Below, one piece after another: positions 35,801 through 55,559 of a stretch of 64,000 nt of DNA (its first letter is position 1; each line of letters starts with the position of its first letter). The DNA is taken from positions 496,001 through 560,000 of the forward strand of contig OZ025781.1 of assembly GCA_964019425.1 (NCBI GenBank), in the 5' to 3' direction. The translations under genes were made by a program, and so were the position numbers. Source of the DNA: Flectonema sp. DT1601. Lineage: Eukaryota. The notes under the pieces are model-generated. The model was not told the origin of the DNA. It searched no databases and saw nothing but the letters and a program-made list of their open reading frames with translations.

Positions 35801-36670
35801 AGGCCATCAAATTCTGATGGATAGATTAGGGGGGGGGGGTGTGTCCTGTCGGTTCCGTATGTGAAATCTATTACAATTAATGAAGACTTGGTTGTGGATT
35901 TAATTATTAATTTATTAGAGGATTCAGACATTCTAGTTTTTAGAGAAGAGCAAGACGGGTCATGTTATTTTATAGGAAATTACAACTACAGAATATGTTG
36001 CACTATTCAGGAATCGAAGCTGCTTTTTCAGTTTTTCCTTATTACTTTACGATTGTTGCCGTCGTTTTGGAACGCTTCATCAATATTAATAAACCTTTTC
36101 GTCTTTCAGTAGATTCCAAAAAAAAAGGAAACAAATAAAAACAACAACAGCAATGCAAGTTTTTGTGACGTGTCCGGATTTGGGATTCCCTGCGGTGTCA
36201 GTCACGGTTGGTGCTGATTCTGTTGTGAGCGACGTGTTGATGGAAGCGGCTGGCGAGTGGGATGTCGATGCGGAGGAAGTTGAACTGTTGTTCGCTGGTG
36301 ATGTCCTTTGTGAAAGTGAGCGGCTGGCAGATCATGGAGTGGGTGGAGACAGCGAGTTGGAAATGCGGAAGAAGCTGATTCGGATCTTCGGTAAAAACTG
36401 GTTTGTTGATGATAGAAAAAGGGAGATGCTGCTTCTTTGGATTAGAGACCACAATACGGAGGATTTATATCTGGACACTCCCACATTCTTGGAGGATGGT
36501 TGCCTCACTGTTGACAAAAGATTGCTTCCTTCAGATGCCAAACGGATTTCCTTCCGCCATTCAAACTCCAACAGCACGGTCATCTCACAAGTTACTTCTA
36601 TTGGAGATGACTTTTTATATGATTGTTCAGAAATCACTTCTCTTGATCTTTCAAGTATTAGTAGTGTCAC
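32841..36670. repeat. Segmental duplication, copy 1 (pairs with 55560-59389, offset 22719)
   Basis: ORF-track entries are identical at offset 22719. Only two amino-acid differences are visible in the Ubl part (M/T, E/V). Confidence 0.95.
33346..34362 (+). CDS. Papain-family (C1A) cysteine protease, cathepsin L/F-like preproenzyme, copy 1
   Basis: Signal peptide, I29 prodomain (GITKFSDMTPEEF), QGQCGSCWSF, LDHAVLIVGFG and YWKIKNSW. Confidence 0.95.
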   Translation: MKLSLALLSLPCLAAGLTASAEDVAHLAFDSFKSQYNKKYVSEVEEAKRYEAFKASLDRVAASGNPTHGITKFSDMTPEEFKATYLSARPLQKSSPPVAEWDGECTACKRFPELSNLKNATSFDWTTKGAVTKVKNQGQCGSCWSFGTTGDIEGTWFLAGNDLTSLSEQELVSCDKTDDGCGGGLQETAFAWVIKQGGLTTEANYPYNSGGGRVDACEEAKKKPIAASIKTWYQVSKNAGGESKIESQLPHVGPITIGINATPMQDYKGGVDNPRLCSGLQLDHAVLIVGFGTDNGVDYWKIKNSWAADWGEEGYYRIVRGHNKCGLANDAVHSVAGK

Positions 36671-39600
36671 TAGTATTGGAAATCATTTTTTATTTCGTTG
36701 TTCAGAAATCACTTCTCTTGACCTTTCAGGTCTTTGTGGTGTCACCAGTATTGGAAGTTCTTTTTTGTCTAATTGTTCAGAAATCACTTCTGTTGACCTT
36801 TCAGGTCTTAGTAGTGTCACCAGTATTAAAAGTTCTTTTTTGTCTTATTGTTCAGAAATCACTTCTCTTGACCTTTCAGGTCTTAGTAGTGTCACCAGTA
36901 TTGGATATCAATTTTTGTCTAATTGTTCAGAAATCACTTCTGTTGCCTGTTTTTACAGGCTATGGGGCTGTATACGTATGGAAAAGGATGTAATGGAGTG
37001 GCAAGAGAAGTGGGCTCACGACGGGCAGTACGGCTACCGGAAGGGGAGATCTACGCTCGACCTCAGCTGGAAGATAGCACTAGACGTGGAACACGCAACT
37101 CTCTACGGAGAAGAGATTGCAGGAGTGACCACGGACTTCAGGAAGTGTTTCGACCTGATCCCGCACGACATCCTCCTGAAATTGGTGAAGGAATTGGGCC
37201 TCGGTGATAAGATCCTGAGAACTGTGACGGATGTCTACCGGCGACTCAGAAGGAGATTCAAGTTCCCGAGCGGCGTCGGAGAAGAATTTGCCACCACCAA
37301 CGGAATACTGCAAGGATGCCCGCTCAGCGTGGTGCTCTTCAATGCGCTGAGCTCGATACTCAGCAAAGCAATCGAGAGGGAAGCCGATGTGACGCCCGGA
37401 TCGTATGCGGACGACCTGACATTGTTTGGATCACGAACGAAGCTACAAGAAGGCGTAGAAGTCGTTGCGGAGTTCTGCACCCTGACCGGACAAGAACTCG
37501 CGCCTCAGAAATGCAAGTGGTTCTCGAACAGAGACCAGGGCCAGACCAACATCACAATGGGGGACACAACACTGGACTTCGATGACAGTGTCGATATCGT
37601 GGGATGCCACCTCAGTATGAAAGGAACCACCAAGCAGATGGGGAGGATCACGGAAGAAGTGCTCGATAGAGCGAGGCGAATCCGGTTACTTCCGCTCAGA
37701 TATCAAGCGAAGGAACAGATAGCTGCAGCTAGTGTCATGCCCAAGGCGCTCTTCGGAACGGCACTGTACGATCCCGATGCGACGCGACTCGGACTGCTGA
37801 GAAGAGCAATGGCAACGGGGATTTTCCGCAAACTTGGAGGGAAAAGAACTAAGATGTCGCACACCATGGGCCTAACGCTACTCTGCAAGGGACATTGTGT
37901 GGATCCCGCGACGTACATTAGGTACAACAGACTCCTTGCACTCACCAGAATGCTACCGAAGCTAACTGAGAGGATACGCAGGGTATGGGAACACCTGCAG
38001 GAGCACACTGAAGCGACGAGAGGACCAGTCGGCCTCGCCCTGAGTACTCTGAAGGAACTTGGATGGGAATGGTCAACTTTCTCGGTCTTCGAAGGTCCGG
38101 GAGGGATGACCGAACACGGAAGGCTGGATGCGGGGCGCTGGCGGCACGATGTCAGAGAGGCGTGCAGGCGTTTCACCTGGAACAAAACAATTGCGGAAAC
38201 GAGACGGGTAAACCTGAGAGGTATTGAAGCGGGCATCGACCGGAAAGAGACCCTGAAGGTCCTGAAGGAAGGAAAGGGCGACCCCTACCTGCGCGGAGTA
38301 GTGAAGCACTGCCTCCTGGACAACGTGTACACTGGCTCGATGAAGGCGGGAAACAAGAACTGCGCGCACTGCGAGGAGGTTGACGACGTAGAGAGGACGG
38401 AGACCCTCGAGCACGTGAACTGGGATTGCAGAGCTTATGACACAATACGACAGGAATATCCGCAAGTGATGCTACAAGTTCGATGCGATTGGCCCAATTG
38501 CCTGAGGCTACTCGGCATCAAGCCCGACAATGTGGAACTGCCGGCGGGGCTCACCGGAGACCTACAACGAATGTTCGCACGGATCAGGCTCCGCAGGGAC
38601 GACTACCAACAACTGGAGGAGAGACGGCTGACGGTTGTGGAATACGCTGGGAACAAGGAACCGGAAGTAGTTATGCGATACAACAACAAACTGGAAAAGT
38701 ACATGCCAGTATACACCCAATGGCCCGAAGCCCTTGGATTGACCTTGTACTTAGCGCTTGCGAGCTACCTGAGGGAACTGAAGTGGCCTCGACAGCCAGA
38801 CGGGGTCGGAGTCACCTTCCTGGAATTAGCGATCGACTTCGAAGCGTATGCGGGGGTTGACATACCGACCACAGTCCACGAAGGCCACGTAGCGAAGTGC
38901 ACCAAAGACAGAGCCGCCGGGAAGAAAGCTGACGTCATGTGTGGACTGATGCTAAGATTGAACTTGGTTCACAAGCATTTAGAAGGCGAGGAACAAAGAA
39001 CCTTTCCCGACTACTGCGTAGGAAGCAACAAAGCCTTACGTCCACTAGGAGCCCCGGTACTGAAAGGTTTGAAGAAACGACCAGCTTTTCTGATGGGAGA
39101 CGAAACAGTAGACACAATTCGGAGGACGGTCCAGGAGGCGAACGACGGAAAAGCTGACAAAATCAGATTCGGCTTCGAGACTGAGTGCAGGCACTCGAGC
39201 GAGAGGGAAGGGAGAGCGGAGAAATGGATAACCGCGGCACGACTTTTCCCATCAAAGGAAAAAGACGTACAGCTGAGGAGGGAGCTCTGCGAGCGAGGAC
39301 CGACACGCCCGCCACCCGAGGTCGTCAAGAGACCGGGCATCGCGGAGGGACAAGGAACGATGAACTCGACGTGCTACGGGCACTTCAAGAAGAAATGCAA
39401 TAGTTGTCGACGGGCCGGAAACACCATCTACCAGTGCTGCCACAACCATCACACTCTGGGGGATGAAGATGGACAAATACCGATATGGGACTTTTGCAGC
39501 AAGCACAAGCTTACTCCATGTGCAGTCTGCATAGTGATCGGCAGAGGATCTGAGCAATGTTGCAGAAACAGCCACCACCGATGCCGTCACCACGAGATGG

Positions 39601-39836
39601 CTCCCTGCAACGACTGCAAGCGGAATCCGGATCCGGAACAACGGACTGCCACGAAATGCTGCAACAAAAAGCATCACGGGCCAATTATAAGGACGTTGAC
39701 GAGGAGGGCGAAGCAGCCGACGAAGCATGATACGCAAACCAGCACATCGCTTCTAAAATTAGGTTTCACCAAACAAATGAAACCGAAAGCAGAGGAAACC
39801 CCGGAAAGGGAACCACAGGACAAGGGGTTAACTTAG
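36153..39836 (+). CDS. Chimeric ORF: ubiquitin-like domain + 25-aa LRRs fused in frame to 5'-deleted retrotransposon ORF2 (RT core + Zn-binding tail)
   Basis: Open 1227-codon frame. MQVFV..Ubl and 4 full LRRs are followed from ~36952 by YRLWG..QYGY..DFRKCFD..GILQGCPLS..YADD, identical to the full element. Confidence 0.8.
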   Translation: MQVFVTCPDLGFPAVSVTVGADSVVSDVLMEAAGEWDVDAEEVELLFAGDVLCESERLADHGVGGDSELEMRKKLIRIFGKNWFVDDRKREMLLLWIRDHNTEDLYLDTPTFLEDGCLTVDKRLLPSDAKRISFRHSNSNSTVISQVTSIGDDFLYDCSEITSLDLSSISSVTSIGNHFLFRCSEITSLDLSGLCGVTSIGSSFLSNCSEITSVDLSGLSSVTSIKSSFLSYCSEITSLDLSGLSSVTSIGYQFLSNCSEITSVACFYRLWGCIRMEKDVMEWQEKWAHDGQYGYRKGRSTLDLSWKIALDVEHATLYGEEIAGVTTDFRKCFDLIPHDILLKLVKELGLGDKILRTVTDVYRRLRRRFKFPSGVGEEFATTNGILQGCPLSVVLFNALSSILSKAIEREADVTPGSYADDLTLFGSRTKLQEGVEVVAEFCTLTGQELAPQKCKWFSNRDQGQTNITMGDTTLDFDDSVDIVGCHLSMKGTTKQMGRITEEVLDRARRIRLLPLRYQAKEQIAAASVMPKALFGTALYDPDATRLGLLRRAMATGIFRKLGGKRTKMSHTMGLTLLCKGHCVDPATYIRYNRLLALTRMLPKLTERIRRVWEHLQEHTEATRGPVGLALSTLKELGWEWSTFSVFEGPGGMTEHGRLDAGRWRHDVREACRRFTWNKTIAETRRVNLRGIEAGIDRKETLKVLKEGKGDPYLRGVVKHCLLDNVYTGSMKAGNKNCAHCEEVDDVERTETLEHVNWDCRAYDTIRQEYPQVMLQVRCDWPNCLRLLGIKPDNVELPAGLTGDLQRMFARIRLRRDDYQQLEERRLTVVEYAGNKEPEVVMRYNNKLEKYMPVYTQWPEALGLTLYLALASYLRELKWPRQPDGVGVTFLELAIDFEAYAGVDIPTTVHEGHVAKCTKDRAAGKKADVMCGLMLRLNLVHKHLEGEEQRTFPDYCVGSNKALRPLGAPVLKGLKKRPAFLMGDETVDTIRRTVQEANDGKADKIRFGFETECRHSSEREGRAEKWITAARLFPSKEKDVQLRRELCERGPTRPPPEVVKRPGIAEGQGTMNSTCYGHFKKKCNSCRRAGNTIYQCCHNHHTLGDEDGQIPIWDFCSKHKLTPCAVCIVIGRGSEQCCRNSHHRCRHHEMAPCNDCKRNPDPEQRTATKCCNKKHHGPIIRTLTRRAKQPTKHDTQTSTSLLKLGFTKQMKPKAEETPEREPQDKGLT

Positions 39837-39909
39837 GTTGGCCGAACCAGTGCCTCGTCATCTCACCGTGCTAGCAAGCCTGAATGACAGCACTCAAAAT
39901 GGTACATAT
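36952..39909 (+). mobile_element. Non-LTR retrotransposon copy A (5' 4.8 kb missing)
   Basis: Identical to 48620-51577. Lacks the ribozyme, ORF1 and the endonuclease. Confidence 0.92.
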
Positions 39910-40834
39910 AATTGTTCACAAATCACTTCTCTTGACCTTTCAGGTCTTAGTAGTGTCACCAGTATTGAAAGTTTTTTTTTGTCTAATTGTTCACAAATCA
40001 CTTCTCTTGACCTTTCAGGTATTAGTAGTGTCACCAGTATTGGAGTTTGTTTTTTGTCTAAGTGTTCAGAAATCACTTCTCTTGACCTTTCAGGTCTTAG
40101 TAGTGTCACCATTATTGAAAGTTCTTTTTTGTCTTATTGTTCTGAAATCACTTCTCTTGACCTTTCAGGTCTTAGTAGTGTCACTAGTATTGGAAATCAT
40201 TTTTTATTTCGTTTTTCAGAAATCACTTCTCTTGACCTTTCAGGTCTTTGTGGTGTCACCAGTATTGGAAGTTCTTTTTTGTCTAATTGTTCACAAATCA
40301 CTTCTCTTGACCTTTCAGGTCTTAGTAGTGTCACCAGTATTGAAAGTTTTTTTTTGTCTAAGTGTTCACAAATCACTTCTCTTGACCTTTCAGGTCTTAG
40401 TAGTGTCACCAGTATTGAAAGTTTTTTTTTGTCTAAGTGTTCACAAATCACTTCTCTTGACCTTTCAGGTCTTAGTAGTGTCACCAGTATTGAAAGTTTT
40501 TTTTTGTCTAAGTGTTCACAAATCACTTCTCTTGACCTTTCAGGTCTTAGTAGTGTCACCAGTATTGGAGATTGTTTTTTGTCTGAGTGTTCAGAAATCA
40601 CTTCTCTTGACCTTAGTAGTGTCAACTCTTGGTCTTAGTAGTGTCACCAGTATTGAAAGTTCTTTTTTGTCTAATTGTTCAAAAATCACTTCTGTTGACC
40701 TTTCAGGTCTTAGTGATGTTAAAGAAATTGGTGATGCCTTCTTCGATAATTGCAGTGCCCTGGAATCTGTTCAGCTGCCTGAAAATAATGGCGCTCTCTT
40801 TGAACCGTCTGTGAAAGCTGCGATTAATCATTAA
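39910..40834 (+). pseudogene. 3' half of the interrupted Ubl-LRR gene (~11 x 75-bp LRR units, frameshift near 40612-40635), copy 1
   Basis: CS[EQ]ITSLDLSGLSSVTSIxxxFLxx repeats. The C-terminal cap (…KEIGDAFFDNCSALESVQLP…AAINH*) is in a different frame. Confidence 0.85.
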
Positions 40835-43830
40835 ATGTAAAGTGTTGAATTGATTATTGGTTGTCATGTATTTTATATTTTTAATGTTTTGTTGTCAATA
40901 AAACGTGGTATCAACTTTTACCAAGTGACGAGACCTCGGAATCTATGATTCTCCTCGCGTCTCATCACTTCTCTTCCGATGATATTATTCTGCCAAGTTA
41001 TCTTTTTTTCCCTGAGCGTTTAGTATTACTGTTTGCGATTATACAAAAATCTACGTCTGTTTTCTGAGTAATCTTTTTTTTTGTTCCGACGAAGTCAGAG
41101 AAGAAACTATTCAGATTGAAAGTCGATATTTCTTATGGTCATGATTAATTTTCACCATGCGACAGGATTTTATCTGTGTTCAACGAAATATAAGGCTGAT
41201 CTGAATGGTTTTTTTGTTCTTATTTTGTGTCAAACCCCCGTCCTTGGATCTGACAGGTATTTTTCAGTTGAGTACTTTGATATTAATTTAATTTCAATAT
41301 CAAAATTCCATTTTTGGTAACGTGCCGCTAACAATGAATGAAGAGGGAGAAAAGCTTCTGTTTGGTTGGGTCAACCAACTGAACGTTTCTCCGCCGATAT
41401 CGGGACGGAAATTATTTACAAGATATTCGTAAAATGTATCAAGCGAAAGTTATTTTGTAGTGTTCATTCTTTTATCAGACTTTCAAGCCTTTCCCCGTTT
41501 TCAATAATAAATCTTAATCCCACCCGCCATTCCTCGTAGTGCCGATCCTCCCCAAGAGAAGATCGGCACATTAATGTTCATGAAGCAGATACTCTAAGGC
41601 AGACGTCTACTCGTCGTCAAGGGTAGACCGCCAAGTTGACGACCCTATATGTATATGATTACCGAGTGAATTGTTTTCTATCCTTCATCATCATCTTTCT
41701 TTCATCAGGTGCAAAAAGAATGCAATAGTTGATTACCGAGTACAACAAAGTTTTTATATTTATCACTCTAATTTACTAACTCAGTAGATGTAAATTCATG
41801 TAGCGTTGGTGCATCAAAGTAGTTGAGAATTTGAATCGAAACTGCCTCGAAGATTCTGTTTTTAAGTTGTCAAAGTTTCACCCCAACCTTCGGATTTAAT
41901 AAAAGAGCTGTTTTATTATTTTTAATATAAGCTAACTCATTTGTTTGAAAAAAATGATTTCCAATTAATGTCTTTGCTGAAAAAACCCGTCGATGCCACC
42001 ACCCCGACATTATTTGTTAGGATTATACAGAGCCCCCTCATGTTTTCTAACTGAATTCTGGATAACACTACCATAATTTATGTAAAGTGAGTACTCCGCT
42101 ATTAGTGTTGCTACGAACTAACAATATGGGTAGGCCATCAAATTCTGATGGATAGTTTAGGGGGGGGAGTAGGGGGGGGGTACAAGCATCGAATTTACGG
42201 AGATTTTGGGCACTTTCGGTTTTTTTCCGGAGAACAAGTTTTTTGGGCACCCAAACTATGAAAACTGCAACATATACCCCAAAAATGGGGATTGCGATCC
42301 AAAGAAACAGTTCTTCGGCACTTTAGAGCAAGTCTTTGAAAAATCTCAAAAAGTGTGGACCGTGTGGGTACCTGAGGGGGGTGAAAACAAGGGGTGTGTT
42401 AGGAGGGCTCACAAAAATTACAAGTAATTCCGTGCATTGAGCAATCCATAACCAGGGTTTCCCTCTGAGTTGAGTGGGGAATGAAATGGGAACCCAAGTT
42501 TTATTTTTATCGACCTGATTTGAACCTTAATAATATGCTCCACCAGACCGGGCTTGTTAATTCCCCCATGTCCGATGTTTAGGCTACTGGCCTTCTCTTG
42601 AGCATCCCATGTGCTCAGCTTTTGAAATTCGGCTCGAAGCTGTGCTTCTTTCTGTACAAGATAGACAGAGGACCAATCCTTGGATACAGATGGCAGATTA
42701 GTATTAGACCTTGCTGTCTAGAGGTCTTCCCTGTGAGGACGGGGTGGTACGTTCAGCCCCTGTAGCGCCTCCTGTTGTGCTTGTTCTTGCCAATTTGAAG
42801 AGGGTCGGTGGTCCTGCGTTGATGTGGTAGCCTTTGGAAGTCCGTGTACCTCTGGAATATGTTGTACGTTATCAGTAGAGTAGCATTCACGCCACTGGTT
42901 CCATCAGTTGACCAAGAACTATCAACAACACTGAATAACCTCCCCATCCCTTGAGGGGTGCAGGATGACAACGAACGCCACGGTTGTTAGCTTCATCCCA
43001 CGAACACGACGGTACCAGAGGAAGTATCATGCTGCAGCAATTTGACGGAGGGTGAGGAGGAAGCTGCTGCTTCAAGAAGTCAGGTCACCGACAGATCACC
43101 TGTGAATCCATCAAGTCGGACTGTCCTTCGAGATACAGTTGGTGACTTCGACCCGCTTCTCTTCTGTCTGCGCACCTGCGACAGCTTCAACTATGTCACT
43201 CACTCAGGACTTAGTTAGATCTCTCTGCGCCGATCCCTTCTTGCCGCAATATCTGCAGTGTAGTTACGACTCCAAGACTCTAGGAGTATGTCCCCCTCGT
43301 TTGGGTACAGTTGCAAGCGGATGTGTCTTCCGTACTTCTTCGTATGCCGCATGTACTGAAGTGTCTTGTATGCCCTGCTGGTGAGTATGGTTGGGTCTTG
43401 AGTGATGCCTTGAACGGCTTTTTGGACGGGGCATGTTGCCCTATGTCGCTGTTGCTATCTATGGCACTGCTATTTGATGCACTACCACTACAGCTGTCTT
43501 CAGGCTTATCCCTGTTTGGGGTACAGACGTGGCGCTTTGTCTATTCTGTGAGCCTTCTGTGATCACGATTCAGATACTGGACGTTTTTGGACCCCTTTCT
43601 CACGCGTATCTTGCTTCTGACTGTCCAAGTGCTGTTGAGTGACTTCAGGGATGCCTCGGGAGGTGTTTTCATGCACTCCGGGATCAATGCTCTCTTCCGC
43701 AGAATGACTTTGTGAGCTGCCCTGCAGAACGTCGTTTTCCGCTGCGTTATCCTGCCTCTTGACCTTTCAGGTCTTAGTAGTGTCACAAGTATTGGAAATC
43801 ATTTTTTTGTCTGAGTGTTCAGAAATCACT

Positions 43831-46767
43831 TGGGATCACGACACCTGCCTCCTCGCGGCGGTCCCGGACGACTTCGATAGGGGTCGACAAGACGGTGTCA
43901 AACGCAAGGGATGCGAACAACATCAACACCAACCACCACATCAAGAGCATCCGAACACTGGATGTTTCTTATCCAACAAAGAAAGAAACAGGCTGGCCCA
44001 TGCCTTGAATGGCAATGGTGGAACAAGGAAGGACAGCAGAGACCGACGCCCGCGGGACGACACTCGCGACAGGGACGAGGACCGCACGGACAAGGAAGAA
44101 CGCCGGCTGGCGAAACTCGAGAAGGAAAAACTCGAGTCGCTAGACGAAATCGAGGAAGAGAAGCAGCGGCTGGGGCAACAGAGAATGGCCATGGAGCAGC
44201 ACCACCACCAGAAGGAAACCAACCTTCAAGGACAAGAAAAACAGTTGGAACAGCAACGCCAACACCAACAACAAGAACTGCAAAGTCAGTACCACCAACA
44301 ACAGCAGCAACTGCAAAGCCACCATCAGCTGAAGGAAACGGAAAGTCTCCAGAAGGAGCAAAACCTACAGGCTCAACTCAAAGAGCAACATCAGCACCAA
44401 CAGAAGGAATTGGAGAAGCAATACCGCCAACGACAACAGCAACTGGAAAGCCAGCAGCAGAAGAAGGACGCCGAGTCTGAACAGCAAACGCATCTGACTC
44501 GGTCACAACTACAGAAGGAAAAGGAATCCTTCCAGACGGAGAAGGAACGGCTCCACCTCCAGCTGGATCAGCAGCTAAAGAACGAGAAGGAGCACCTCCA
44601 CCGAAAGCTCAAGGAGCAGATTGGACAAGAAAAAGTCCAACAACAACAAAAGCTCCAACAGAAGGAAGACGAGATCCAACGGCGTGAGGAAGAGGTGAAC
44701 CGAGGACAGCAGCAACTACACCAACAGCAGCAACAACTAGAGCAACAGCAACAGCAATCGCAACATCAGCAACTGGAACTACAACAACAACGGCAACAAC
44801 AACAACAACAGCATCAACAACTGGAACTGGAACAACAACAACTACAACAGCAACTGCAACTGCAACAACATCGACAACCGCAACAACAACCGCAACAGCA
44901 ACCCGTACACTACATGCAACATCAACCGTATGCAACGTACGACACCTACGCCCAGCAGCAGCAGCAGTCTTCCCACTACGAAGGACTACAACAGGAACTG
45001 AAGCGCGAGAGAGAGGAGAAAAGCGAACTACGCGAGATGCTCCGAACTCTCCAACAACAACTGGACGGATTGAGAGAAGAACTCAAGGCCCAACATGCTG
45101 AGGCGAAGAGGCAGCAGGAAACGGCGGGACGGGAAGCGAGAGAGATGCAAGAACGTTTCTTGCTAGAACTCGAAGCGGAACGGGTCCAGATCAGAGGACT
45201 CAACTCGCTGAGAGAAGAGGAAGAGGAACATCAGATGGACACCACCCCTGATCAGGAAGCAAACACGGAAGTGAAGCAAACGCCACCGGTGAAGCTGCCC
45301 CAAGACGGTATGAGGGAGCTGGACGCCTCACGCAAGAAGCTGATGAAAGAAATCAATGAAGGGCAGGTAGCCGGACGATCGGCCATCCAAGAGCAGATGG
45401 TCCGAGAGGCCGGGAGACTGGCGCAGACTCAGAAGAGCTGGGAGAACGCAGCACGCAAGGAGCGATCCAGGGTGGATAACCTCTCGCTGGCACCGGAGTA
45501 TTGGCCAGAGGGAATGGCAATTACGAAGGAGCAGTACGACGCCGGTACAAAGGGAGTACACCTCACCACCAGAGAGGAGGCAAGGAAGAGGATGTCGGGA
45601 ACACCTCCGGGAGCCTGGGAAACGTTATCCCTAGTAACCCTGGAACCACCATCAGACACGGCGCAGAAAGTACAGGTAGTACTTAAGGAGACGACGAGCG
45701 ACGGCGAGAAGAGAATTCTCAAGCAGCTCTGGATGACAACACTGGGAAGAGTGGTTGTACCATCCGGAACAGACGTCGTGCGGACGGAAAGCACGAGGGA
45801 GATGGTTGTCCGAGTGGACAAAAAATGGTCCGGAGAGAAGAGATGGTCGGAAGTGAAGCGCTCCCCGATCAGGGCAACGGAAGAGTTGAGGAAGATGCAG
45901 GGGTATGTCGATACGTACAACCCGCGGATCGGAGACCAGAGCGTCACGGTGATGCTCAGGGTGAAGGTAGCCGAAGTGAAGAACTTCCTCCGAGAATCGG
46001 GGAAGGACGGCGTCTTCACCAAGGAAAAGGATCCGAGAGAAGAACGAGCAGTGAAGGCGGCGGTCATTTGGCTACCGAAGGACGAGACACTCGGAATCGC
46101 TCGGGACAAGGCTGTAGAAGTCGATGGAGGGCTGGGACTTGTGGTAAACGAACACGGACTCGGGCTTCGAGTGACCAGCTGGCAGGAAACGGCGGCGAGG
46201 GAGAAACTGCACCTGCCGGCTAAGCTACCGGAAACAAAGATCACGGGTATCCCGATCGGCACAACCACCGACGAAGCGATCAAGTGGCTGATCACGAAGG
46301 AAGGCTGGGAAGTGAGGAAGACGAAGGAAGGCGTACGGAACGGCATGCGATGGATGGTCGTCCGCGGTCCGGTGAGAACGCAGGAAACCATCACGGTGGA
46401 TGGCGTCCTGTGCATGGTGGAGGCTGGGAAACAGAAGGTGGAAGTCGACCCGAAACGGAAGGAGACCAAACGCCCGAATGCGACACCGACAAAACCGGAG
46501 AAAAGGCGTGACCCGACGGAGGGAACGGGAGGAAAGTGGTACACTCGATTGGAGTTCATCGAGTTTCATGGGAAGAAGAAGGGACAACGCCTATGGTTAG
46601 AAGCCAGCAACCCAACACCAACTACGACGGCACCTACGAAGGCAGCGACCGCAACGACAACAGCGAAAAAGGAGCCCAAGTCGACAAAAAAGAAGGAGAA
46701 CAGCTCAGTGGACGAGAGATTGGACCGACTGGAACGTCTACTGATGGCGTTCATGGAACGGAATTGA
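43831..46767 (+). CDS. Retrotransposon ORF1 (Gln-rich coiled coil, RRM-like C-terminal region); true start unclear
   Basis: Frame is open from the insertion junction to TGA at 46765-46767. First in-frame ATG is at 44185. The frame is preserved across indels in copy C. Confidence 0.85.
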   Translation, partial: WDHDTCLLAAVPDDFDRGRQDGVKRKGCEQHQHQPPHQEHPNTGCFLSNKERNRLAHALNGNGGTRKDSRDRRPRDDTRDRDEDRTDKEERRLAKLEKEKLESLDEIEEEKQRLGQQRMAMEQHHHQKETNLQGQEKQLEQQRQHQQQELQSQYHQQQQQLQSHHQLKETESLQKEQNLQAQLKEQHQHQQKELEKQYRQRQQQLESQQQKKDAESEQQTHLTRSQLQKEKESFQTEKERLHLQLDQQLKNEKEHLHRKLKEQIGQEKVQQQQKLQQKEDEIQRREEEVNRGQQQLHQQQQQLEQQQQQSQHQQLELQQQRQQQQQQHQQLELEQQQLQQQLQLQQHRQPQQQPQQQPVHYMQHQPYATYDTYAQQQQQSSHYEGLQQELKREREEKSELREMLRTLQQQLDGLREELKAQHAEAKRQQETAGREAREMQERFLLELEAERVQIRGLNSLREEEEEHQMDTTPDQEANTEVKQTPPVKLPQDGMRELDASRKKLMKEINEGQVAGRSAIQEQMVREAGRLAQTQKSWENAARKERSRVDNLSLAPEYWPEGMAITKEQYDAGTKGVHLTTREEARKRMSGTPPGAWETLSLVTLEPPSDTAQKVQVVLKETTSDGEKRILKQLWMTTLGRVVVPSGTDVVRTESTREMVVRVDKKWSGEKRWSEVKRSPIRATEELRKMQGYVDTYNPRIGDQSVTVMLRVKVAEVKNFLRESGKDGVFTKEKDPREERAVKAAVIWLPKDETLGIARDKAVEVDGGLGLVVNEHGLGLRVTSWQETAAREKLHLPAKLPETKITGIPIGTTTDEAIKWLITKEGWEVRKTKEGVRNGMRWMVVRGPVRTQETITVDGVLCMVEAGKQKVEVDPKRKETKRPNATPTKPEKRRDPTEGTGGKWYTRLEFIEFHGKKKGQRLWLEASNPTPTTTAPTKAATATTTAKKEPKSTKKKENSSVDERLDRLERLLMAFMERN
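43832..43899 (+). ncRNA. Predicted HDV-like self-cleaving ribozyme at the element 5' end (copy B)
   Basis: P1 GGGAUC/GGUCCC; P2 GACACC/GGUGUC; P3-L3 GCC-UCCUCGC-GGC; P1.1 GG; P4 CGACUUC-GAUA-GGGGUCG; J4/2 ACAA with candidate catalytic C43888. Folded by eye. Confidence 0.88.
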
Positions 46768-49700
46768 CCGGCGGAGGACGGAAGGAACTGGGCGGAGACA
46801 CGGAGACGTCTCCTGCTACAAGCTGGCGACGTTGAGAGGAACCCCGGACCGAGACCACGAATCGATGGGCTCACCGTGGGAACAATCAATGTCACCACAC
46901 TAGAAGGAAAAATAGATGCCATCACAGATCTGAACCTAGATCTGATAGCTCTACAGGAAACTTCTCTGACGGGCCCACAGCAACGCCAGATGAAAAAACA
47001 GCTCGGTGAGAGAGGATGGGAAGCGACGTTCGGGTTAGAGTGCAAATTACTAACCGATGGGCAAAAGACGTGGACGGCGGCGGGAGGCGTGGCCATCTTG
47101 ACGCGCACTGGTACACCGGTGAGAAGGATAAAACACGATCGGCTCGACAACACAGGACGATTCGTACACGCGGGAGTGTCGTACGGAAATGGCAAGGTAC
47201 TGCACGTATTCTCGTTCTACGGAGACGTACGTTCGGCGGTCTACACGGAAGAGTTGATTGCGGAGATGCTCGTGGAAGCAGCAGCTCTGGGTGATGTTCC
47301 CGTATTTATAGCGGGGGACTTCAACGTCGAAACAACGGAATCGCCGGCGCTTCTGTCGGCTTTCGCACACGGACTCTGGATAGATGCCGCCGTCTCGATG
47401 GGAAACATGACACCGACAAGCGAAGCGGGAAAAGGACTTCGTAGAATCGATGCTATTCTGATGAACCGCGGGGCGGCGACAGCAATCTCGAATGACACAA
47501 CGATTCATGTGCATAAGAGTGAGCTGATCCCGACACACAAGCCGGTCATCATTAGAAAGCTCAGCATCTCACGCTACAACGAGAAGGCTCCTAGGCTGAT
47601 AGTACCGAAACAGTTGGATACCTCCGAGACAACGGACCCGAGTGAGGGGAAGGCCGAAAGGCAACTCCACTGGACGCGAGCTGTAGCGACGGAAGATCCT
47701 GACAAGATGCTGGAGGCGCTTGGAGAGATCATCGAAAGATACCTTCTGACGGGAAAGCTGGAGATAAGTAACCCAGCCAAGTACAAGGGACGCGGGAAGA
47801 AGCGTGAGCCTGTGATGTGGACGAACGCGGCGAAACAAGACGGGAGAGGAGCGACGTGCAGGGAAACGCGGAGAAGACTGCAGAAGATACGTGTTCTGGA
47901 GGAAGTGATGAAAATCACAAAGCAACGCGATGGTCCGACGGTGCCGTCCCACGAAGTAATGAAACTCTGGAAAAAATTACGAAAACTCGATCCGACGACG
48001 GGATCCGAAATACCACAGACGGAGGAGCTTCGGATACTACTACAACAAGCGAGACAGGAGCAAGCGATAGAAAGCAAGAAGCTCCGAACTGAACGCATCC
48101 GCATGTGGAAACGGAATGTTGTCGACAATTGGAATGACGACCGCACGAAGGTTTTCCAGTGGATCAGGAACGTCGAGCAATCGAAGACTGTTCTGATGGA
48201 AAAGGCAGATGGAAGCTGGACGGCCAACTGCTCCGAGATGGATGAGGCCATGCACGCGGCATGGGACCCCATACTCAAAAAGTACTTATCAGACCCGGAA
48301 CCAGACTGGATGAAGTTCGAAGAACGGTACAGCAACTACATCGAGGAACACCCGATGCGATGCGAAGATATCACCGGGGAGGACGTTGCAAAAGCCCTCA
48401 GAAGGACTAGCTCGCGCAAAGCAGCTGGGGTAGACGGCTTCAGGATATCGGAGCTCAAGTCGCTACCGGAGGACATGATTCAGATGATAGCGGAATTCTA
48501 CAACATAGTGGAGAGAACACACTGGCCGGAAGCACTTCTCACGGCACTGGTGTCGGCCATACCCAAAGGGGCAGGGACGAAACCACTGGAGCAGAGACCC
48601 ATTACGGTGACATCCGCACTTTACAGGCTATGGGGCTGTATACGTATGGAAAAGGATGTAATGGAGTGGCAAGAGAAGTGGGCTCACGACGGGCAGTACG
48701 GCTACCGGAAGGGGAGATCTACGCTCGACCTCAGCTGGAAGATAGCACTAGACGTGGAACACGCAACTCTCTACGGAGAAGAGATTGCAGGAGTGACCAC
48801 GGACTTCAGGAAGTGTTTCGACCTGATCCCGCACGACATCCTCCTGAAATTGGTGAAGGAATTGGGCCTCGGTGATAAGATCCTGAGAACTGTGACGGAT
48901 GTCTACCGGCGACTCAGAAGGAGATTCAAGTTCCCGAGCGGCGTCGGAGAAGAATTTGCCACCACCAACGGAATACTGCAAGGATGCCCGCTCAGCGTGG
49001 TGCTCTTCAATGCGCTGAGCTCGATACTCAGCAAAGCAATCGAGAGGGAAGCCGATGTGACGCCCGGATCGTATGCGGACGACCTGACATTGTTTGGATC
49101 ACGAACGAAGCTACAAGAAGGCGTAGAAGTCGTTGCGGAGTTCTGCACCCTGACCGGACAAGAACTCGCGCCTCAGAAATGCAAGTGGTTCTCGAACAGA
49201 GACCAGGGCCAGACCAACATCACAATGGGGGACACAACACTGGACTTCGATGACAGTGTCGATATCGTGGGATGCCACCTCAGTATGAAAGGAACCACCA
49301 AGCAGATGGGGAGGATCACGGAAGAAGTGCTCGATAGAGCGAGGCGAATCCGGTTACTTCCGCTCAGATATCAAGCGAAGGAACAGATAGCTGCAGCTAG
49401 TGTCATGCCCAAGGCGCTCTTCGGAACGGCACTGTACGATCCCGATGCGACGCGACTCGGACTGCTGAGAAGAGCAATGGCAACGGGGATTTTCCGCAAA
49501 CTTGGAGGGAAAAGAACTAAGATGTCGCACACCATGGGCCTAACGCTACTCTGCAAGGGACATTGTGTGGATCCCGCGACGTACATTAGGTACAACAGAC
49601 TCCTTGCACTCACCAGAATGCTACCGAAGCTAACTGAGAGGATACGCAGGGTATGGGAACACCTGCAGGAGCACACTGAAGCGACGAGAGGACCAGTCGG

Positions 49701-51504
49701 CCTCGCCCTGAGTACTCTGAAGGAACTTGGATGGGAATGGTCAACTTTCTCGGTCTTCGAAGGTCCGGGAGGGATGACCGAACACGGAAGGCTGGATGCG
49801 GGGCGCTGGCGGCACGATGTCAGAGAGGCGTGCAGGCGTTTCACCTGGAACAAAACAATTGCGGAAACGAGACGGGTAAACCTGAGAGGTATTGAAGCGG
49901 GCATCGACCGGAAAGAGACCCTGAAGGTCCTGAAGGAAGGAAAGGGCGACCCCTACCTGCGCGGAGTAGTGAAGCACTGCCTCCTGGACAACGTGTACAC
50001 TGGCTCGATGAAGGCGGGAAACAAGAACTGCGCGCACTGCGAGGAGGTTGACGACGTAGAGAGGACGGAGACCCTCGAGCACGTGAACTGGGATTGCAGA
50101 GCTTATGACACAATACGACAGGAATATCCGCAAGTGATGCTACAAGTTCGATGCGATTGGCCCAATTGCCTGAGGCTACTCGGCATCAAGCCCGACAATG
50201 TGGAACTGCCGGCGGGGCTCACCGGAGACCTACAACGAATGTTCGCACGGATCAGGCTCCGCAGGGACGACTACCAACAACTGGAGGAGAGACGGCTGAC
50301 GGTTGTGGAATACGCTGGGAACAAGGAACCGGAAGTAGTTATGCGATACAACAACAAACTGGAAAAGTACATGCCAGTATACACCCAATGGCCCGAAGCC
50401 CTTGGATTGACCTTGTACTTAGCGCTTGCGAGCTACCTGAGGGAACTGAAGTGGCCTCGACAGCCAGACGGGGTCGGAGTCACCTTCCTGGAATTAGCGA
50501 TCGACTTCGAAGCGTATGCGGGGGTTGACATACCGACCACAGTCCACGAAGGCCACGTAGCGAAGTGCACCAAAGACAGAGCCGCCGGGAAGAAAGCTGA
50601 CGTCATGTGTGGACTGATGCTAAGATTGAACTTGGTTCACAAGCATTTAGAAGGCGAGGAACAAAGAACCTTTCCCGACTACTGCGTAGGAAGCAACAAA
50701 GCCTTACGTCCACTAGGAGCCCCGGTACTGAAAGGTTTGAAGAAACGACCAGCTTTTCTGATGGGAGACGAAACAGTAGACACAATTCGGAGGACGGTCC
50801 AGGAGGCGAACGACGGAAAAGCTGACAAAATCAGATTCGGCTTCGAGACTGAGTGCAGGCACTCGAGCGAGAGGGAAGGGAGAGCGGAGAAATGGATAAC
50901 CGCGGCACGACTTTTCCCATCAAAGGAAAAAGACGTACAGCTGAGGAGGGAGCTCTGCGAGCGAGGACCGACACGCCCGCCACCCGAGGTCGTCAAGAGA
51001 CCGGGCATCGCGGAGGGACAAGGAACGATGAACTCGACGTGCTACGGGCACTTCAAGAAGAAATGCAATAGTTGTCGACGGGCCGGAAACACCATCTACC
51101 AGTGCTGCCACAACCATCACACTCTGGGGGATGAAGATGGACAAATACCGATATGGGACTTTTGCAGCAAGCACAAGCTTACTCCATGTGCAGTCTGCAT
51201 AGTGATCGGCAGAGGATCTGAGCAATGTTGCAGAAACAGCCACCACCGATGCCGTCACCACGAGATGGCTCCCTGCAACGACTGCAAGCGGAATCCGGAT
51301 CCGGAACAACGGACTGCCACGAAATGCTGCAACAAAAAGCATCACGGGCCAATTATAAGGACGTTGACGAGGAGGGCGAAGCAGCCGACGAAGCATGATA
51401 CGCAAACCAGCACATCGCTTCTAAAATTAGGTTTCACCAAACAAATGAAACCGAAAGCAGAGGAAACCCCGGAAAGGGAACCACAGGACAAGGGGTTAAC
51501 TTAG
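46768..51504 (+). CDS. Retrotransposon ORF2: 2A peptide + APE endonuclease + reverse transcriptase + CCHC knuckle + triple Cys/His repeat
   Basis: APE motifs GTINV, IALQET, GGVAIL, GDFNV and RIDAIL; RT motifs RPITV, DFRKCFD, GILQGCPLS and YADD; C-x2-C...H-x4-C. Same frame as ORF1, no ATG before the APE domain, no RNase H recognised. Confidence 0.93.
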   Translation, partial: PAEDGRNWAETRRRLLLQAGDVERNPGPRPRIDGLTVGTINVTTLEGKIDAITDLNLDLIALQETSLTGPQQRQMKKQLGERGWEATFGLECKLLTDGQKTWTAAGGVAILTRTGTPVRRIKHDRLDNTGRFVHAGVSYGNGKVLHVFSFYGDVRSAVYTEELIAEMLVEAAALGDVPVFIAGDFNVETTESPALLSAFAHGLWIDAAVSMGNMTPTSEAGKGLRRIDAILMNRGAATAISNDTTIHVHKSELIPTHKPVIIRKLSISRYNEKAPRLIVPKQLDTSETTDPSEGKAERQLHWTRAVATEDPDKMLEALGEIIERYLLTGKLEISNPAKYKGRGKKREPVMWTNAAKQDGRGATCRETRRRLQKIRVLEEVMKITKQRDGPTVPSHEVMKLWKKLRKLDPTTGSEIPQTEELRILLQQARQEQAIESKKLRTERIRMWKRNVVDNWNDDRTKVFQWIRNVEQSKTVLMEKADGSWTANCSEMDEAMHAAWDPILKKYLSDPEPDWMKFEERYSNYIEEHPMRCEDITGEDVAKALRRTSSRKAAGVDGFRISELKSLPEDMIQMIAEFYNIVERTHWPEALLTALVSAIPKGAGTKPLEQRPITVTSALYRLWGCIRMEKDVMEWQEKWAHDGQYGYRKGRSTLDLSWKIALDVEHATLYGEEIAGVTTDFRKCFDLIPHDILLKLVKELGLGDKILRTVTDVYRRLRRRFKFPSGVGEEFATTNGILQGCPLSVVLFNALSSILSKAIEREADVTPGSYADDLTLFGSRTKLQEGVEVVAEFCTLTGQELAPQKCKWFSNRDQGQTNITMGDTTLDFDDSVDIVGCHLSMKGTTKQMGRITEEVLDRARRIRLLPLRYQAKEQIAAASVMPKALFGTALYDPDATRLGLLRRAMATGIFRKLGGKRTKMSHTMGLTLLCKGHCVDPATYIRYNRLLALTRMLPKLTERIRRVWEHLQEHTEATRGPVGLALSTLKELGWEWSTFSVFEGPGGMTEHGRLDAGRWRHDVREACRRFTWNKTIAETRRVNLRGIEAGIDRKETLKVLKEGKGDPYLRGVVKHCLLDNVYTGSMKAGNKNCAHCEEVDDVERTETLEHVNWDCRAYDTIRQEYPQVMLQVRCDWPNCLRLLGIKPDNVELPAGLTGDLQRMFARIRLRRDDYQQLEERRLTVVEYAGNKEPEVVMRYNNKLEKYMPVYTQWPEALGLTLYLALASYLRELKWPRQPDGVGVTFLELAIDFEAYAGVDIPTTVHEGHVAKCTKDRAAGKKADVMCGLMLRLNLVHKHLEGEEQRTFPDYCVGSNKALRPLGAPVLKGLKKRPAFLMGDETVDTIRRTVQEANDGKADKIRFGFETECRHSSEREGRAEKWITAARLFPSKEKDVQLRRELCERGPTRPPPEVVKRPGIAEGQGTMNSTCYGHFKKKCNSCRRAGNTIYQCCHNHHTLGDEDGQIPIWDFCSKHKLTPCAVCIVIGRGSEQCCRNSHHRCRHHEMAPCNDCKRNPDPEQRTATKCCNKKHHGPIIRTLTRRAKQPTKHDTQTSTSLLKLGFTKQMKPKAEETPEREPQDKGLT
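46789..46851 (+). other. 2A (StopGo) ribosome-skipping peptide WAETRRRLLLQAGDVERNPG|P (copy B)
   Basis: Exact D[VI]ExNPGP consensus at 46828-46851, preceded by LLxQAG, immediately before APE motif I. Confidence 0.92.
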
Positions 51505-54500
51505 GTTGGCCGAACCAGTGCCTCGTCATCTCACCGTGCTAGCAAGCCTGAATGACAGCACTCAAAATGGTACATATAATTGTTCACAAATCACTTCTCT
51601 TGACCTTTCAGGTCTTAGTAGTGTCACCAGTATTGAAAGTTTTTTTTTGTCTAATTGTTCACAAATCACTTCTCTTGACCTTTCAGGTATTAGTAGTGTC
51701 ACCAGTATTGGAGTTTGTTTTTTGTCTAAGTGTTCAGAAATCACTTCTCTTGACCTTTCAGGTCTTAGTAGTGTCACCATTATTGAAAGTTCTTTTTTGT
51801 CTTATTGTTCTGAAATCACTTCTCTTGACCTTTCAGGTCTTAGTAGTGTCACTAGTATTGGAAATCATTTTTTATTTCGTTTTTCAGAAATCACTTCTCT
51901 TGACCTTTCAGGTCTTTGTGGTGTCACCAGTATTGGAAGTTCTTTTTTGTCTAATTGTTCACAAATCACTTCTCTTGACCTTTCAGGTCTTAGTAGTGTC
52001 ACCAGTATTGAAAGTTTTTTTTTGTCTAAGTGTTCACAAATCACTTCTCTTGACCTTTCAGGTCTTAGTAGTGTCACCAGTATTGAAAGTTTTTTTTTGT
52101 CTAAGTGTTCACAAATCACTTCTCTTGACCTTTCAGGTCTTAGTAGTGTCACCAGTATTGAAAGTTTTTTTTTGTCTAAGTGTTCACAAATCACTTCTCT
52201 TGACCTTTCAGGTCTTAGTAGTGTCACCAGTATTGGAGATTGTTTTTTGTCTGAGTGTTCAGAAATCACTTCTCTTGACCTTAGTAGTGTCAACTCTTGG
52301 TCTTAGTAGTGTCACCAGTATTGAAAGTTCTTTTTTGTCTAATTGTTCAAAAATCACTTCTGTTGACCTTTCAGGTCTTAGTGATGTTAAAGAAATTGGT
52401 GATGCCTTCTTCGATAATTGCAGTGCCCTGGAATCTGTTCAGCTGCCTGAAAATAATGGCGCTCTCTTTGAACCGTCTGTGAAAGCTGCGATTAATCATT
52501 AAATGTAAAGTGTTGAATTGATTATTGGTTGTCATGTATTTTATATTTTTAATGTTTTGTTGTCAATAAAACGTGGTATCAACTTTTACCAAGTGACGAG
52601 ACCTCGGAATCTATGATTCTCCTCGCGTCTCATCACTTCTCTTCCGATGATATTATTCTGCCAAGTTATCTTTTTTTCCCTGAGCGTTTAGTATTACTGT
52701 TTGCGATTATACAAAAATCTACGTCTGTTTTCTGAGTAATCTTTTTTTTTGTTCCGACGAAGTCAGAGAAGAAACTATTCAGATTGAAAGTCGATATTTC
52801 TTATGGTCATGATTAATTTTCACCATGCGACAGGATTTTATCTGTGTTCAACGAAATATAAGGCTGATCTGAATGGTTTTTTTGTTCTTATTTTGTGTCA
52901 AACCCCCGTCCTTGGATCTGACAGGTATTTTTCAGTTGAGTACTTTGATATTAATTTAATTTCAATATCAAAATTCCATTTTTGGTAACGTGCCGCTAAC
53001 AATGAATGAAGAGGGAGAAAAGCTTCTGTTTGGTTGGGTCAACCAACTGAACGTTTCTCCGCCGATATCGGGACGGAAATTATTTACAAGATATTCGTAA
53101 AATGTATCAAGCGAAAGTTATTTTGTAGTGTTCATTCTTTTATCAGACTTTCAAGCCTTTCCCCGTTTTCAATAATAAATCTTAATCCCACCCGCCATTC
53201 CTCGTAGTGCCGATCCTCCCCAAGAGAAGATCGGCACATTAATGTTCATGAAGCAGATACTCTAAGGCAGACGTCTACTCGTCGTCAAGGGTAGACCGCC
53301 AAGTTGACGACCCTATATGTATATGATTACCGAGTGAATTGTTTTCTATCCTTCATCATCATCTTTCTTTCATCAGGTGCAAAAAGAATGCAATAGTTGA
53401 TTACCGAGTACAACAAAGTTTTTATATTTATCACTCTAATTTACTAACTCAGTAGATGTAAATTCATGTAGCGTTGGTGCATCAAAGTAGTTGAGAATTT
53501 GAATCGAAACTGCCTCGAAGATTCTGTTTTTAAGTTGTCAAAGTTTCACCCCAACCTTCGGATTTAATAAAAGAGCTGTTTTATTATTTTTAATATAAGC
53601 TAACTCATTTGTTTGAAAAAAATGATTTCCAATTAATGTCTTTGCTGAAAAAACCCGTCGATGCCACCACCCCGACATTATTTGTTAGGATTATACAGAG
53701 CCCCCTCATGTTTTCTAACTGAATTCTGGATAACACTACCATAATTTATGTAAAGTGAGTACTCCGCTATTAGTGTTGCTACGAACTAACAATATGGGTA
53801 GGCCATCAAATTCTGATGGATAGTTTAGGGGGGGGAGTAGGGGGGGGGTACAAGCATCGAATTTACGGAGATTTTGGGCACTTTCGGTTTTTTTCCGGAG
53901 AACAAGTTTTTTGGGCACCCAAACTATGAAAACTGCAACATATACCCCAAAAATGGGGATTGCGATCCAAAGAAACAGTTCTTCGGCACTTTAGAGCAAG
54001 TCTTTGAAAAATCTCAAAAAGTGTGGACCGTGTGGGTACCTGAGGGGGGTGAAAACAAGGGGTGTGTTAGGAGGGCTCACAAAAATTACAAGTAATTCCG
54101 TGCATTGAGCAATCCATAACCAGGGTTTCCCTCTGAGTTGAGTGGGGAATGAAATGGGAACCCAAGTTTTATTTTTATCGACCTGATTTGAACCTTAATA
54201 ATATGCTCCACCAGACCGGGCTTGTTAATTCCCCCATGTCCGATGTTTAGGCTACTGGCCTTCTCTTGAGCATCCCATGTGCTCAGCTTTTGAAATTCGG
54301 CTCGAAGCTGTGCTTCTTTCTGTACAAGATAGACAGAGGACCAATCCTTGGATACAGATGGCAGATTAGTATTAGACCTTGCTGTCTAGAGGTCTTCCCT
54401 GTGAGGACGGGGTGGTACGTTCAGCCCCTGTAGCGCCTCCTGTTGTGCTTGTTCTTGCCAATTTGAAGAGGGTCGGTGGTCCTGCGTTGATGTGGTAGCC

Positions 54501-55424: not shown

Positions 55425-55559
55425 CGTGAGCCTCGTGGCATGGCCGAGCGAGAGCGCTGCTCTTTTTCGTGGCGTGTTCTTGAAGCGGAAACTGATACGG
55501 AAATGGTATATTAGCACACTGCGTGCACAGGGACACACTAAGGTCACCTCTTCTCATTG

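What the first reader, a model, noticed from the sequence alone, without database searches (positions are those of the whole stretch)
43810..43840. Two diverged elements sit at the identical nucleotide of the LRR repeat (site-specific insertion)
Seen: copy B (43832) and copy C (59959) both follow ...tgttcagaaatcactt|GGGATC. Their upstream LRR cassettes differ (GNHF..SE vs GDCFLSY) and their ORF1s differ by many substitutions and indels, while the host duplications here are nearly identical. The 3' junction resumes at aattgttcacaaatcactt, giving a 16-19 nt TSD-like overlap. Inference: two independent insertions at a fixed target in the invariant part of the LRR. Known site-specific APE elements (R1, Tx1 groups) mostly target rDNA, snRNA, tRNA, telomeric or microsatellite repeats or other transposons, so a protein-coding repeat target would be unusual.
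Basis: partly seen in the sequence, partly recalled or inferred. Interest (0 to 1): 0.88.

Follow-up and report, generated by a model that had tools for sequence, protein, structure and literature searches.

The report
Retrotransposon targeting a protein-coding repeat
A jumping gene in a marine single-celled eukaryote sits at the same spot of a repeated unit in several different leucine-rich-repeat genes, which likely means it aims at a protein-coding repeat rather than at the RNA genes or simple repeats that most aimed jumping genes use.

Summary
Observation confirmed and extended. B (43832) and C (59959) are copies of a 7.7-kb non-LTR retrotransposon (ORF1; in-frame UGA; 2A-like peptide; APE, RT, CCHC) in a diplonemid. 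Both start at the same nucleotide of a 75-bp BspA-type LRR unit. B and C alone do not prove two insertions: the locus is a rearranged tandem duplication and the copies are mosaics. Public proteins supply better evidence. All 5 copies with a visible 5' end abut LRR (four at this nucleotide, one 2 nt short), in different paralogs whose host domains are 83% identical while the elements are about 99% identical. A second, different insert truncates 3 of 18 LRR paralogs at the same codon, in three unrelated branches. Sister families show non-LRR flanks. The element's first 68 nt fit an HDV-like ribozyme predicted to cut exactly at the junction. Limits: only one 3' junction is known, no TSD is perfect, and most copies have unseen flanks. 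Precedents for protein-coding targets exist in trypanosomes (RHS hot spot, TcTREZO in MASP), so this is a new variant, not a new category.

The parts
43756..43831 (+). single LRR unit upstream of copy B (target remnant behind a rearrangement joint; one extra T in its T-run)
43832..51577 (+). element copy B, full length, no poly(A) tail; 3' end uncertain by about 2 nt
43832..43899 (+). predicted HDV-like ribozyme (P1 6 bp, P3 GCC/GGC, L3 UCCUCGC, P1.1 GG, P4, P2); predicted cut at the junction
   Evidence: (Rfam RF00094, 16.5 bits, below threshold 50)
43831..46767 (+). ORF1: open from the junction codon TGG, first AUG only at 44185 (codon 119); Q/E-rich region, then a domain with weak tandem-RRM resemblance; ends in UGA
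46768..51504 (+). ORF2, in frame directly behind the ORF1 UGA; no AUG before residue 75
46801..46851 (+). 2A-like peptide ending DVERNPGP
   Evidence: motif D(V/I)ExNPGP
46867..47577 (+). APE endonuclease domain; N41, E64, D184, N186, D228, H257 invariant in 22 rows; fold closest to LINE-1 endonuclease
48583..49209 (+). reverse transcriptase (RVT_1, YADD)
50029..50097 (+). CCHC-type zinc finger; a Cys/His-rich tail follows near the C-terminus
51578..52502 (+). 3' half of the interrupted LRR gene; its first 19 nt are the TSD-like overlap; frame changes near 52272-52314
58872..59958 (+). 5' half of host gene (ubiquitin-like N-terminal domain, named by eye, plus about 8.5 BspA-type LRR units), in frame with ORF1 of copy C
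59959..64000 (+). element copy C (runs off the window); predicted ribozyme 59959-60026; ORF1 to 62981
36153..36945 (+). 5' half of LRR gene upstream of copy A
36952..39909 (+). element copy A, 5'-truncated inside RT; joined 6 nt past the canonical site through a 6-nt filler; identical to the 3' part of B
39910..40834 (+). 3' half of LRR gene behind copy A (duplicate of 51578-52502)

Best explanation
This is an APE-type non-LTR retrotransposon family of a diplonemid that sits at the same nucleotide of the 75-bp repeat unit in several different LRR genes and likely inserts there by its own target preference. Shown: the anatomy; LRR flanks at 5 of 5 visible 5' ends; host paralogs older than the elements; a second insert at the same codon. 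Inferred steps: (1) the element is co-transcribed with the host LRR gene in a polycistronic unit; (2) the HDV-like ribozyme cuts the RNA at G1, which fixes the element's 5' end; (3) ORF1 is translated without its own upstream AUG, and ORF2 is reached by read-through of, or reinitiation after, the UGA and trimmed by the 2A-like peptide; (4) the APE domain nicks the bottom strand about 16-19 nt upstream of the 5' junction, just 3' of the T-tract of the Phe-Leu codons, and reverse transcription is primed there, possibly helped by pairing with LRR sequence on an RNA that reads through and has no poly(A); (5) the top strand is opened after ATCACTT. The second (WVTKLG) insert is a ribozyme-headed partner or sister family using the same site. 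A repeat present about 5-18 times per gene in a large gene family is a multicopy, expendable target, like rDNA for R1/R2.
For: 5 of 5 visible 5' ends lie in LRR: B, C, P0037 (..YTCERIT|WDHDT, 608-kb contig), P0047 (..YRCSRIT|WDHDT, 411-kb contig), P0130 (LRR in another frame, 12/13 identity to a window unit, junction 2 nt short, 769-kb contig). The last three were found through ORF1, not through LRR. Host domains of C and P0047 are 83% identical, element ORF1 C-termini 98.8-99.6%; P0047's nearest paralog is uninterrupted and a C+P0047 clade is rejected (p-AU 0.018). Flanks differ from the third codon before the junction, so little or no flank was co-copied. 3 of 18 LRR proteins end at [IN]T|WVTKLG, each sister to a paralog without the insert; one clade rejected (p-AU 1e-79). 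The longest such tail can be back-translated into an HDV-like fold whose G1 is the junction base (null 4 of 1265 windows, 12 of 2000 shuffles). One X1 contig runs from a divergent LRR to ACTT-GGG and then 196 nt unlike this element (record 7). 9 N-terminal extensions of sister-family ORF1s are not LRR (4 are poly-K, as behind a poly(A) tail). Intact ORFs and APE residues; pN/pS 0.09-0.24 along ORF1 beyond codon 30.
Against: The family lies on at least 15 contigs but flanks are visible for 5 copies on 4 contigs; truncated copies with unrelated flanks would be invisible. Flanks outside the window are protein-level only, and a junction is visible only if a called ORF spans it. Only one 3' junction is known, and a search for proteins starting in the 3' UTR found none among 24 candidates. 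No perfect TSD. Copy A joins 6 nt off the site with filler. In R2, ribozyme cleavage at the element's own 5' end goes with variable 5' junctions (PMC3774820 passages), whereas these are mostly uniform. The ribozyme scores below the Rfam threshold, has a 6-bp P1, and my descriptor was written after seeing the sequences. WVTKLG hosts were found through LRR, so they say nothing on where else that insert goes.
Confidence: 0.75

Rival explanations
1. Relative specificity only, as for ingi/L1Tc: the endonuclease prefers a loose motif (a T-tract then A), the LRR unit is a hot spot, and many copies sit elsewhere.
For: The ingi6 signature TTTTxxxxxA^A (PMC3820030 passages) occurs in 7 units of the downstream LRR array at the phase of the 3' junction; most of the family's copies have unseen flanks; RHS is such a hot spot.
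Against: The signature occurs 201 times in the window, so 5 of 5 LRR flanks are not expected from it alone; sister families in the same collection do show non-LRR flanks.
Confidence: 0.3
2. Target choice comes from RNA-DNA pairing, not from the endonuclease: the untailed transcript reads through into downstream LRR, anneals to a nicked LRR unit and primes there, so the site perpetuates itself. Compatible with the best explanation as to the site; differs in the mechanism.
For: No poly(A) at the one known 3' end, while sister families appear tailed; the 3' side of the overlap mismatches all three 5' sides, as expected if it came from a donor; target sequence on the RNA makes R2 junctions uniform.
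Against: Does not by itself explain a fixed 5' junction with variable flanks, nor a second family at the same base; recombination within the array can also give the mismatches.
Confidence: 0.3
3. One old insertion spread among paralogs by segmental duplication, unequal crossing-over and gene conversion through LRR homology; no targeting.
For: It explains A and B (identical 3' part and flank) and possibly B versus C: the locus is a tandem rearrangement and the elements are mosaics.
Against: Hosts 83% versus elements about 99% identical; hosts not one clade; flanks vary within three codons of the junction; a second, different insert at the same base in three unrelated paralogs.
Confidence: 0.1
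4. The repeated junctions in the window are assembly artefacts of collapsed or chimeric repeats.
For: A 6.8-kb duplicate with one difference; no read-level support was obtained for the junctions of A and B.
Against: C's junction is in an X1 contig; junctions on three other contigs have their own flanks.
Confidence: 0.04

Closest known systems
Trypanosome ingi/RIME and L1Tc/NARTc at the RHS hot spot
   Same: Euglenozoan host; APE-RT element; 5' HDV-like ribozyme; 2A-like peptide before APE; a fixed site inside the coding region of a multigene family; the ingi6 motif fits the LRR unit (passages of PMC7563717, PMC5814959, PMC3820030).
   Different: Those have one ORF, RNase H, a poly(A) tail, 12-bp TSDs and only relative specificity; this one has a long ORF1, no RNase H hit, no tail, a 16-19-nt overlap, and targets a tandem coding repeat that offers many sites per gene.
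TcTREZO of Trypanosoma cruzi
   Same: Listed as site-specific and mostly inserted into a protein-coding family, MASP pseudogenes (PMC5814959 passage; the primary paper was not held).
   Different: Described as composed of sequences from different genome regions, not as an autonomous APE-RT element; different target.
R1 and Tx1 clades (sequence-specific APE elements)
   Same: Two ORFs, APE-RT-zinc finger, fixed site in a multicopy sequence.
   Different: [quoted passage not shown]
R2
   Same: Co-transcription with the target and release by a 5' HDV-like ribozyme (PMC3774820 passages).
   Different: Restriction-like endonuclease, single ORF, rDNA target.
Unclassified diplonemid and Symbiodinium APE-RT elements
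   Same: Nearest sequences: 53-63% (same collection and Flectonema neradi transcripts), 34-48% Diplonema papillatum, under 30% Symbiodinium-labelled clusters.
   Different: Sister ORF1s start at an AUG inside the ribozyme and show non-LRR flanks; no target analysis in the D. papillatum genome paper passages read.

Membership tests
APE-type non-LTR retrotransposon | APE endonuclease N-terminal to RT in ORF2 | tested here: met
   Pfam PF03372 and PF00078; model pLDDT 86, best fold match LINE-1 endonuclease E 1e-13
APE-type non-LTR retrotransposon | Dispersed, variably truncated copies | tested here: met
   22 ORF2 cluster members, 15 listed on 10 contigs; copy A 5'-truncated
APE-type non-LTR retrotransposon | Target-site duplication | tested here: inconclusive
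   16-18 of 19 matches, one 3' junction, repeat target
Ingi clade (ingi/L1Tc) | 5' HDV-like ribozyme | tested here: inconclusive
   Structure fits by descriptor; Rfam 16.5 bits, E 5.4; activity untested; Pr77 sequence identity not compared
Ingi clade (ingi/L1Tc) | 2A-like peptide before APE | tested here: met
   DVERNPGP at 46801-46851; activity untested
Ingi clade (ingi/L1Tc) | Single ORF with RNase H after RT | tested here: not met
   Two ORFs; no RNase H family at E 0.001
Ingi clade (ingi/L1Tc) | Poly(A) tail and 12-bp TSD | tested here: not met
   No tail at 51577; overlap 16-19 nt
Ingi clade (ingi/L1Tc) | RT phylogeny | not testable with these tools
   No named reference RT sequences were returned by any search
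R1 or Tx1 clade | RT phylogeny | not testable with these tools
   As above; phmmer of the APE domain against PDB gave 0 hits at E 10
R1 or Tx1 clade | Strict target sequence across copies | tested here: inconclusive
   5 of 5 visible 5' flanks, 1 3' flank; most copies unseen
HDV-like ribozyme | Nested double pseudoknot P1, P1.1, P2, P3, P4 with conserved L3 | tested here: met
   All helices can form; P1 has 6 bp; C has one P2 mismatch
HDV-like ribozyme | Self-cleavage 5' of G1 | not testable with these tools
   No RNA run listed

The most novel reading that the evidence does not exclude
The family has given up its own start codon and lives as an in-frame parasite: it aims at the one LRR nucleotide that fuses ORF1 to the host gene, borrowing the host's trans-splice site and AUG to make an LRR-ORF1(-ORF2) fusion, while ribozyme-cut RNA serves as template. 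In sister families the AUG lies inside the ribozyme (MPPRGG...); here that codon is CUG and its frame closes after 10 codons, the first ORF1 AUG is codon 119, yet codons 51-118 are under purifying selection (pN/pS 0.11) and keep the sister N-terminal motif; three copies (C, P0037, P0047) are uninterrupted fusions. Against: an open frame across 20 codons in the host's frame is not improbable by chance, the WVTKLG insert closes that frame, B and P0130 are out of frame, and non-AUG initiation from the ribozyme region would explain the same data.
Probability: 0.2. Interest if true: 0.88.

Novelty: new variant of a known kind. Interest (0 to 1): 0.67.

Why it matters
It adds a tandem protein-coding repeat to the targets of aimed non-LTR elements and, if the RT falls outside R1 and Tx1, a further origin of sequence specificity in APE elements. 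Untargeted-looking sister families (53-63% identical ORF2 relatives) exist in the same organism group, so the residues or RNA features that create specificity can be found by comparison and domain swaps, a long-standing question that also bears on retrotransposon-based gene insertion tools. It parallels the trypanosome RHS hot spot in a free-living relative, and it shows an element pseudogenising and reshuffling a variable LRR gene family.

Tried and rejected
No whole genome is held, so flanks could not be tabulated from DNA. No RNA holder listed. Runs X2 and X4 gave only short or repeat matches. I first read an X1 contig as a sixth flank; one search showed it equals copy C (0 differences), so it was dropped from the count. 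Loose ends before the Cys codon in X1 are mixed consensuses, probably divergent LRR units; not used. N-termini of P0089 and P0091 looked like flanks but are other frames of the element. The 3'-junction protein search returned 16 LRR paralog clusters of 24 candidates and none began in the element's 3' UTR. A metagenome scan for junction plus ribozyme core gave 18 loci, 0 of 18 similar to the window or the proteins. Thermodynamic folding of the 5' end is no better than shuffles (z 0.19 and -0.18; pseudoknots are not modelled). ORF1 has no Pfam hit; its model is poor (pLDDT 58) with RRM-type matches only at E about 0.01. The Atlas gave no answer. Earlier findings: none in 3 look-ups. Literature searches that found no report of an LRR-targeting element; only listings were seen, the library lacks most subscription papers and Repbase could not be searched. 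Bringaud 2002, Souza 2007 and the paper on ribozyme-driven translation initiation were not held. No supplements were read.

Full report
Observation. The two junctions are as described: TGTTCAGAAATCACTT then GGGATC at 43832 and 59959, 2 of 37 AAATCACTT sites in the window. The target is a 75-bp unit (25 aa, Pfam LRR_5, BspA type) of a gene with a 145-aa N-terminal domain that looks ubiquitin-like by eye. The window holds three copies in a rearranged tandem: A (36952-39909, 5'-truncated), B (43832-51577, full) and C (59959 onward). 36952-43756 equals 48620-55424 but for one base, so A and B share one 3' junction; 32830-36945 equals 55549-59664 but for 27 bases; B's upstream LRR is a 76-nt remnant behind a joint. 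The 19-nt overlap matches 18, 16 and 17 of 19 for A, B and C. B and C differ mainly in the first kilobase. The window alone therefore cannot separate two insertions from recombination.

Host. The window's cathepsin is in a 90% cluster with transcripts labelled Flectonema neradi, and ORF2's nearest named relatives are from that species (61-63%) and Diplonema papillatum (34-48%). The host is a diplonemid. D. papillatum genes are described as likely co-transcribed in groups and its elements as not rigorously classified (PMC10161547 passages).

Anatomy. ORF1 is open from the junction codon to a UGA at 46767. ORF2 follows in the same frame with no AUG before residue 75: a 2A-like DVERNPGP, an APE domain with invariant catalytic-type residues whose model is closest to the LINE-1 endonuclease, RT (YADD), a CCHC finger and a Cys/His tail; no RNase H hit and no poly(A). 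The first 68 nt fit an HDV-like ribozyme. Rfam aligns RF00094 there at 16.5 bits, below threshold; a descriptor written from this sequence hits only 43832 and 59959 on both strands of the window. The predicted cut is the junction itself, which explains why full-length copies start at the same element base; it does not explain the same host base.

Other copies. A search with ORF1 gave 6 clusters. In this family's cluster 2 of 6 members include the 5' end, both as in-frame LRR fusions with new flanks: YTCERIT|WDHDT and YRCSRIT|WDHDT, on contigs other than the window's; 4 of 6 are internal fragments. A second search with the first 120 codons gave one true hit of 5, P0130, whose upstream residues are LRR DNA in another frame (12 of 13 identical to a window unit), 2 nt short of the canonical junction. 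With B and C that is 5 of 5 visible 5' ends in LRR. The host domains of C and P0047 are 83% identical against 98.8-99.6% for the ORF1 C-termini, P0047's closest paralog is uninterrupted, and a clade of the two hosts is rejected (p-AU 0.018; 17 rows; P0117, P0121, P0122, P0037 and P0130 left out). The insertions postdate the paralogs. The family occurs on at least 15 contigs, told apart by length, so most flanks are unseen.

A second insert. A search meant for 3' junctions found none but returned 16 LRR paralog clusters (18 proteins with members); 3 of 18 stop at [IN]T|WVTKLG. They fall in three branches, each beside a paralog without the insert (one clade rejected, p-AU 1e-79). The longest tail can be back-translated into an HDV-like fold with a 7-bp P1 starting at the junction base and at none of the other 8 offsets tried; 4 of 1265 control windows and 12 of 2000 shuffles fit (I noticed the fit by eye first). 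An X1 contig leaves a divergent LRR at ACTT-GGG into 196 unrelated bases. This is probably a partner or sister element using the same site; its identity is unknown.

Control. Sister ORF1 families (5 clusters) begin with MPPRGG or MPSRGG, which is the ribozyme core read as codons. Nine N-terminal extensions among their listed members are not LRR; four are poly-K (short peptides, weak test, some may be frameshift artefacts). The method can thus show non-LRR flanks.

Mechanism. Shown: anatomy, flanks, relative ages. Inferred from established target-primed reverse transcription: co-transcription with the host gene, ribozyme release, bottom-strand nick 16-19 nt upstream of the 5' junction, top-strand opening after ATCACTT. 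The ingi6 signature TTTTxxxxxA^A (PMC3820030 passages) fits 7 units of the downstream array at this phase but occurs 201 times in the window and is incomplete in the units before B and C. Whether the endonuclease or a read-through RNA reads the site is open; in R2, uniform 5' junctions go with target sequence on the RNA (PMC3774820 passages).

Translation puzzle. The first ORF1 AUG is codon 119, but codons 51-118 show 22.5 synonymous against 8.5 non-synonymous differences between B and C (pN/pS 0.11) and carry a motif shared with sister N-termini. The sister AUG is CUG here, in a frame that closes after 10 codons. Either non-AUG initiation or the host AUG supplies the start; C, P0037 and P0047 are open fusions, B and P0130 are not. 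A review links 2A to elements lacking ORF1 (PMC3894237 passages); this element has both.

Comparison. Target-specific APE elements are listed as R1 and Tx1 clades with RNA-gene, transposon, microsatellite or telomeric targets (PMC4640811 passages). Protein-coding targets are known in trypanosomes: the RHS hot spot for ingi and RIME (PMC7563717 passages) and TcTREZO in MASP pseudogenes (PMC5814959 passage). The element works like ingi/L1Tc at RHS (ribozyme, 2A, coding target) but fails Ingi membership on ORF number, RNase H, tail and TSD length; its clade could not be tested. Other papers seen: PMC12278014 and PMC4035085 passages, PMC3708506 listing only. Searches showed no report of an LRR-targeting element.

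Verdict. A real feature, most likely true target preference (0.75), with loose hot-spot behaviour the main alternative. New variant of a known kind; interest 0.67.

Noticed in passing
window 54168-55548 (-) and its truncated duplicate 42500-43755: GC-richer minus-strand stretch that reads like the 3' part of an unrelated retroelement (CxxC...H motif, broken frames); B's rearrangement joint lies in it. No match to 12 element proteins tried.
   Followed up: partly
window 46765-46851: ORF1 ends in UGA followed by C (a leaky context, from recall), in frame with a 2A-like peptide and APE; relatives P0002, P0003 and P0006 have a longer N-terminal domain before APE (OTU-like by eye) that this family lacks.
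   Followed up: partly
P0040, P0056, P0065, P0071: Sister-family copies, 5'-truncated, sit directly behind poly(A); two read MVHS-polyK, matching the ATGGTACAT at this element's 3' end, so sisters seem tailed and inserted behind each other.
   Followed up: partly
window 36599-36945, 39910-40714, 59310-59958: The LRR arrays are mosaics of a few unit types that vary at four codons, like a shuffled variable-repeat family; at least 18 paralogs on 12 other contigs.
   Followed up: partly
window 36946-36951: 6-nt filler at copy A's joint makes an uninterrupted 1247-codon LRR-RT frame (36093-39836).
   Followed up: no
window 6841-12264: 1807-aa ORF with a CAP domain and two arrays of 297-bp Cys-rich repeats, then 105-bp repeats.
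   Followed up: no
window 35580-35836, 41907-42167, 53575-53835, 58299-58555: A 260-bp non-coding repeat lies both upstream and downstream of the LRR gene copies.
   Followed up: no
window 33250-34362 and 55969-57081: Duplicated papain-family protease gene inside the tandem unit; a short copy of its start lies near 57599.
   Followed up: no
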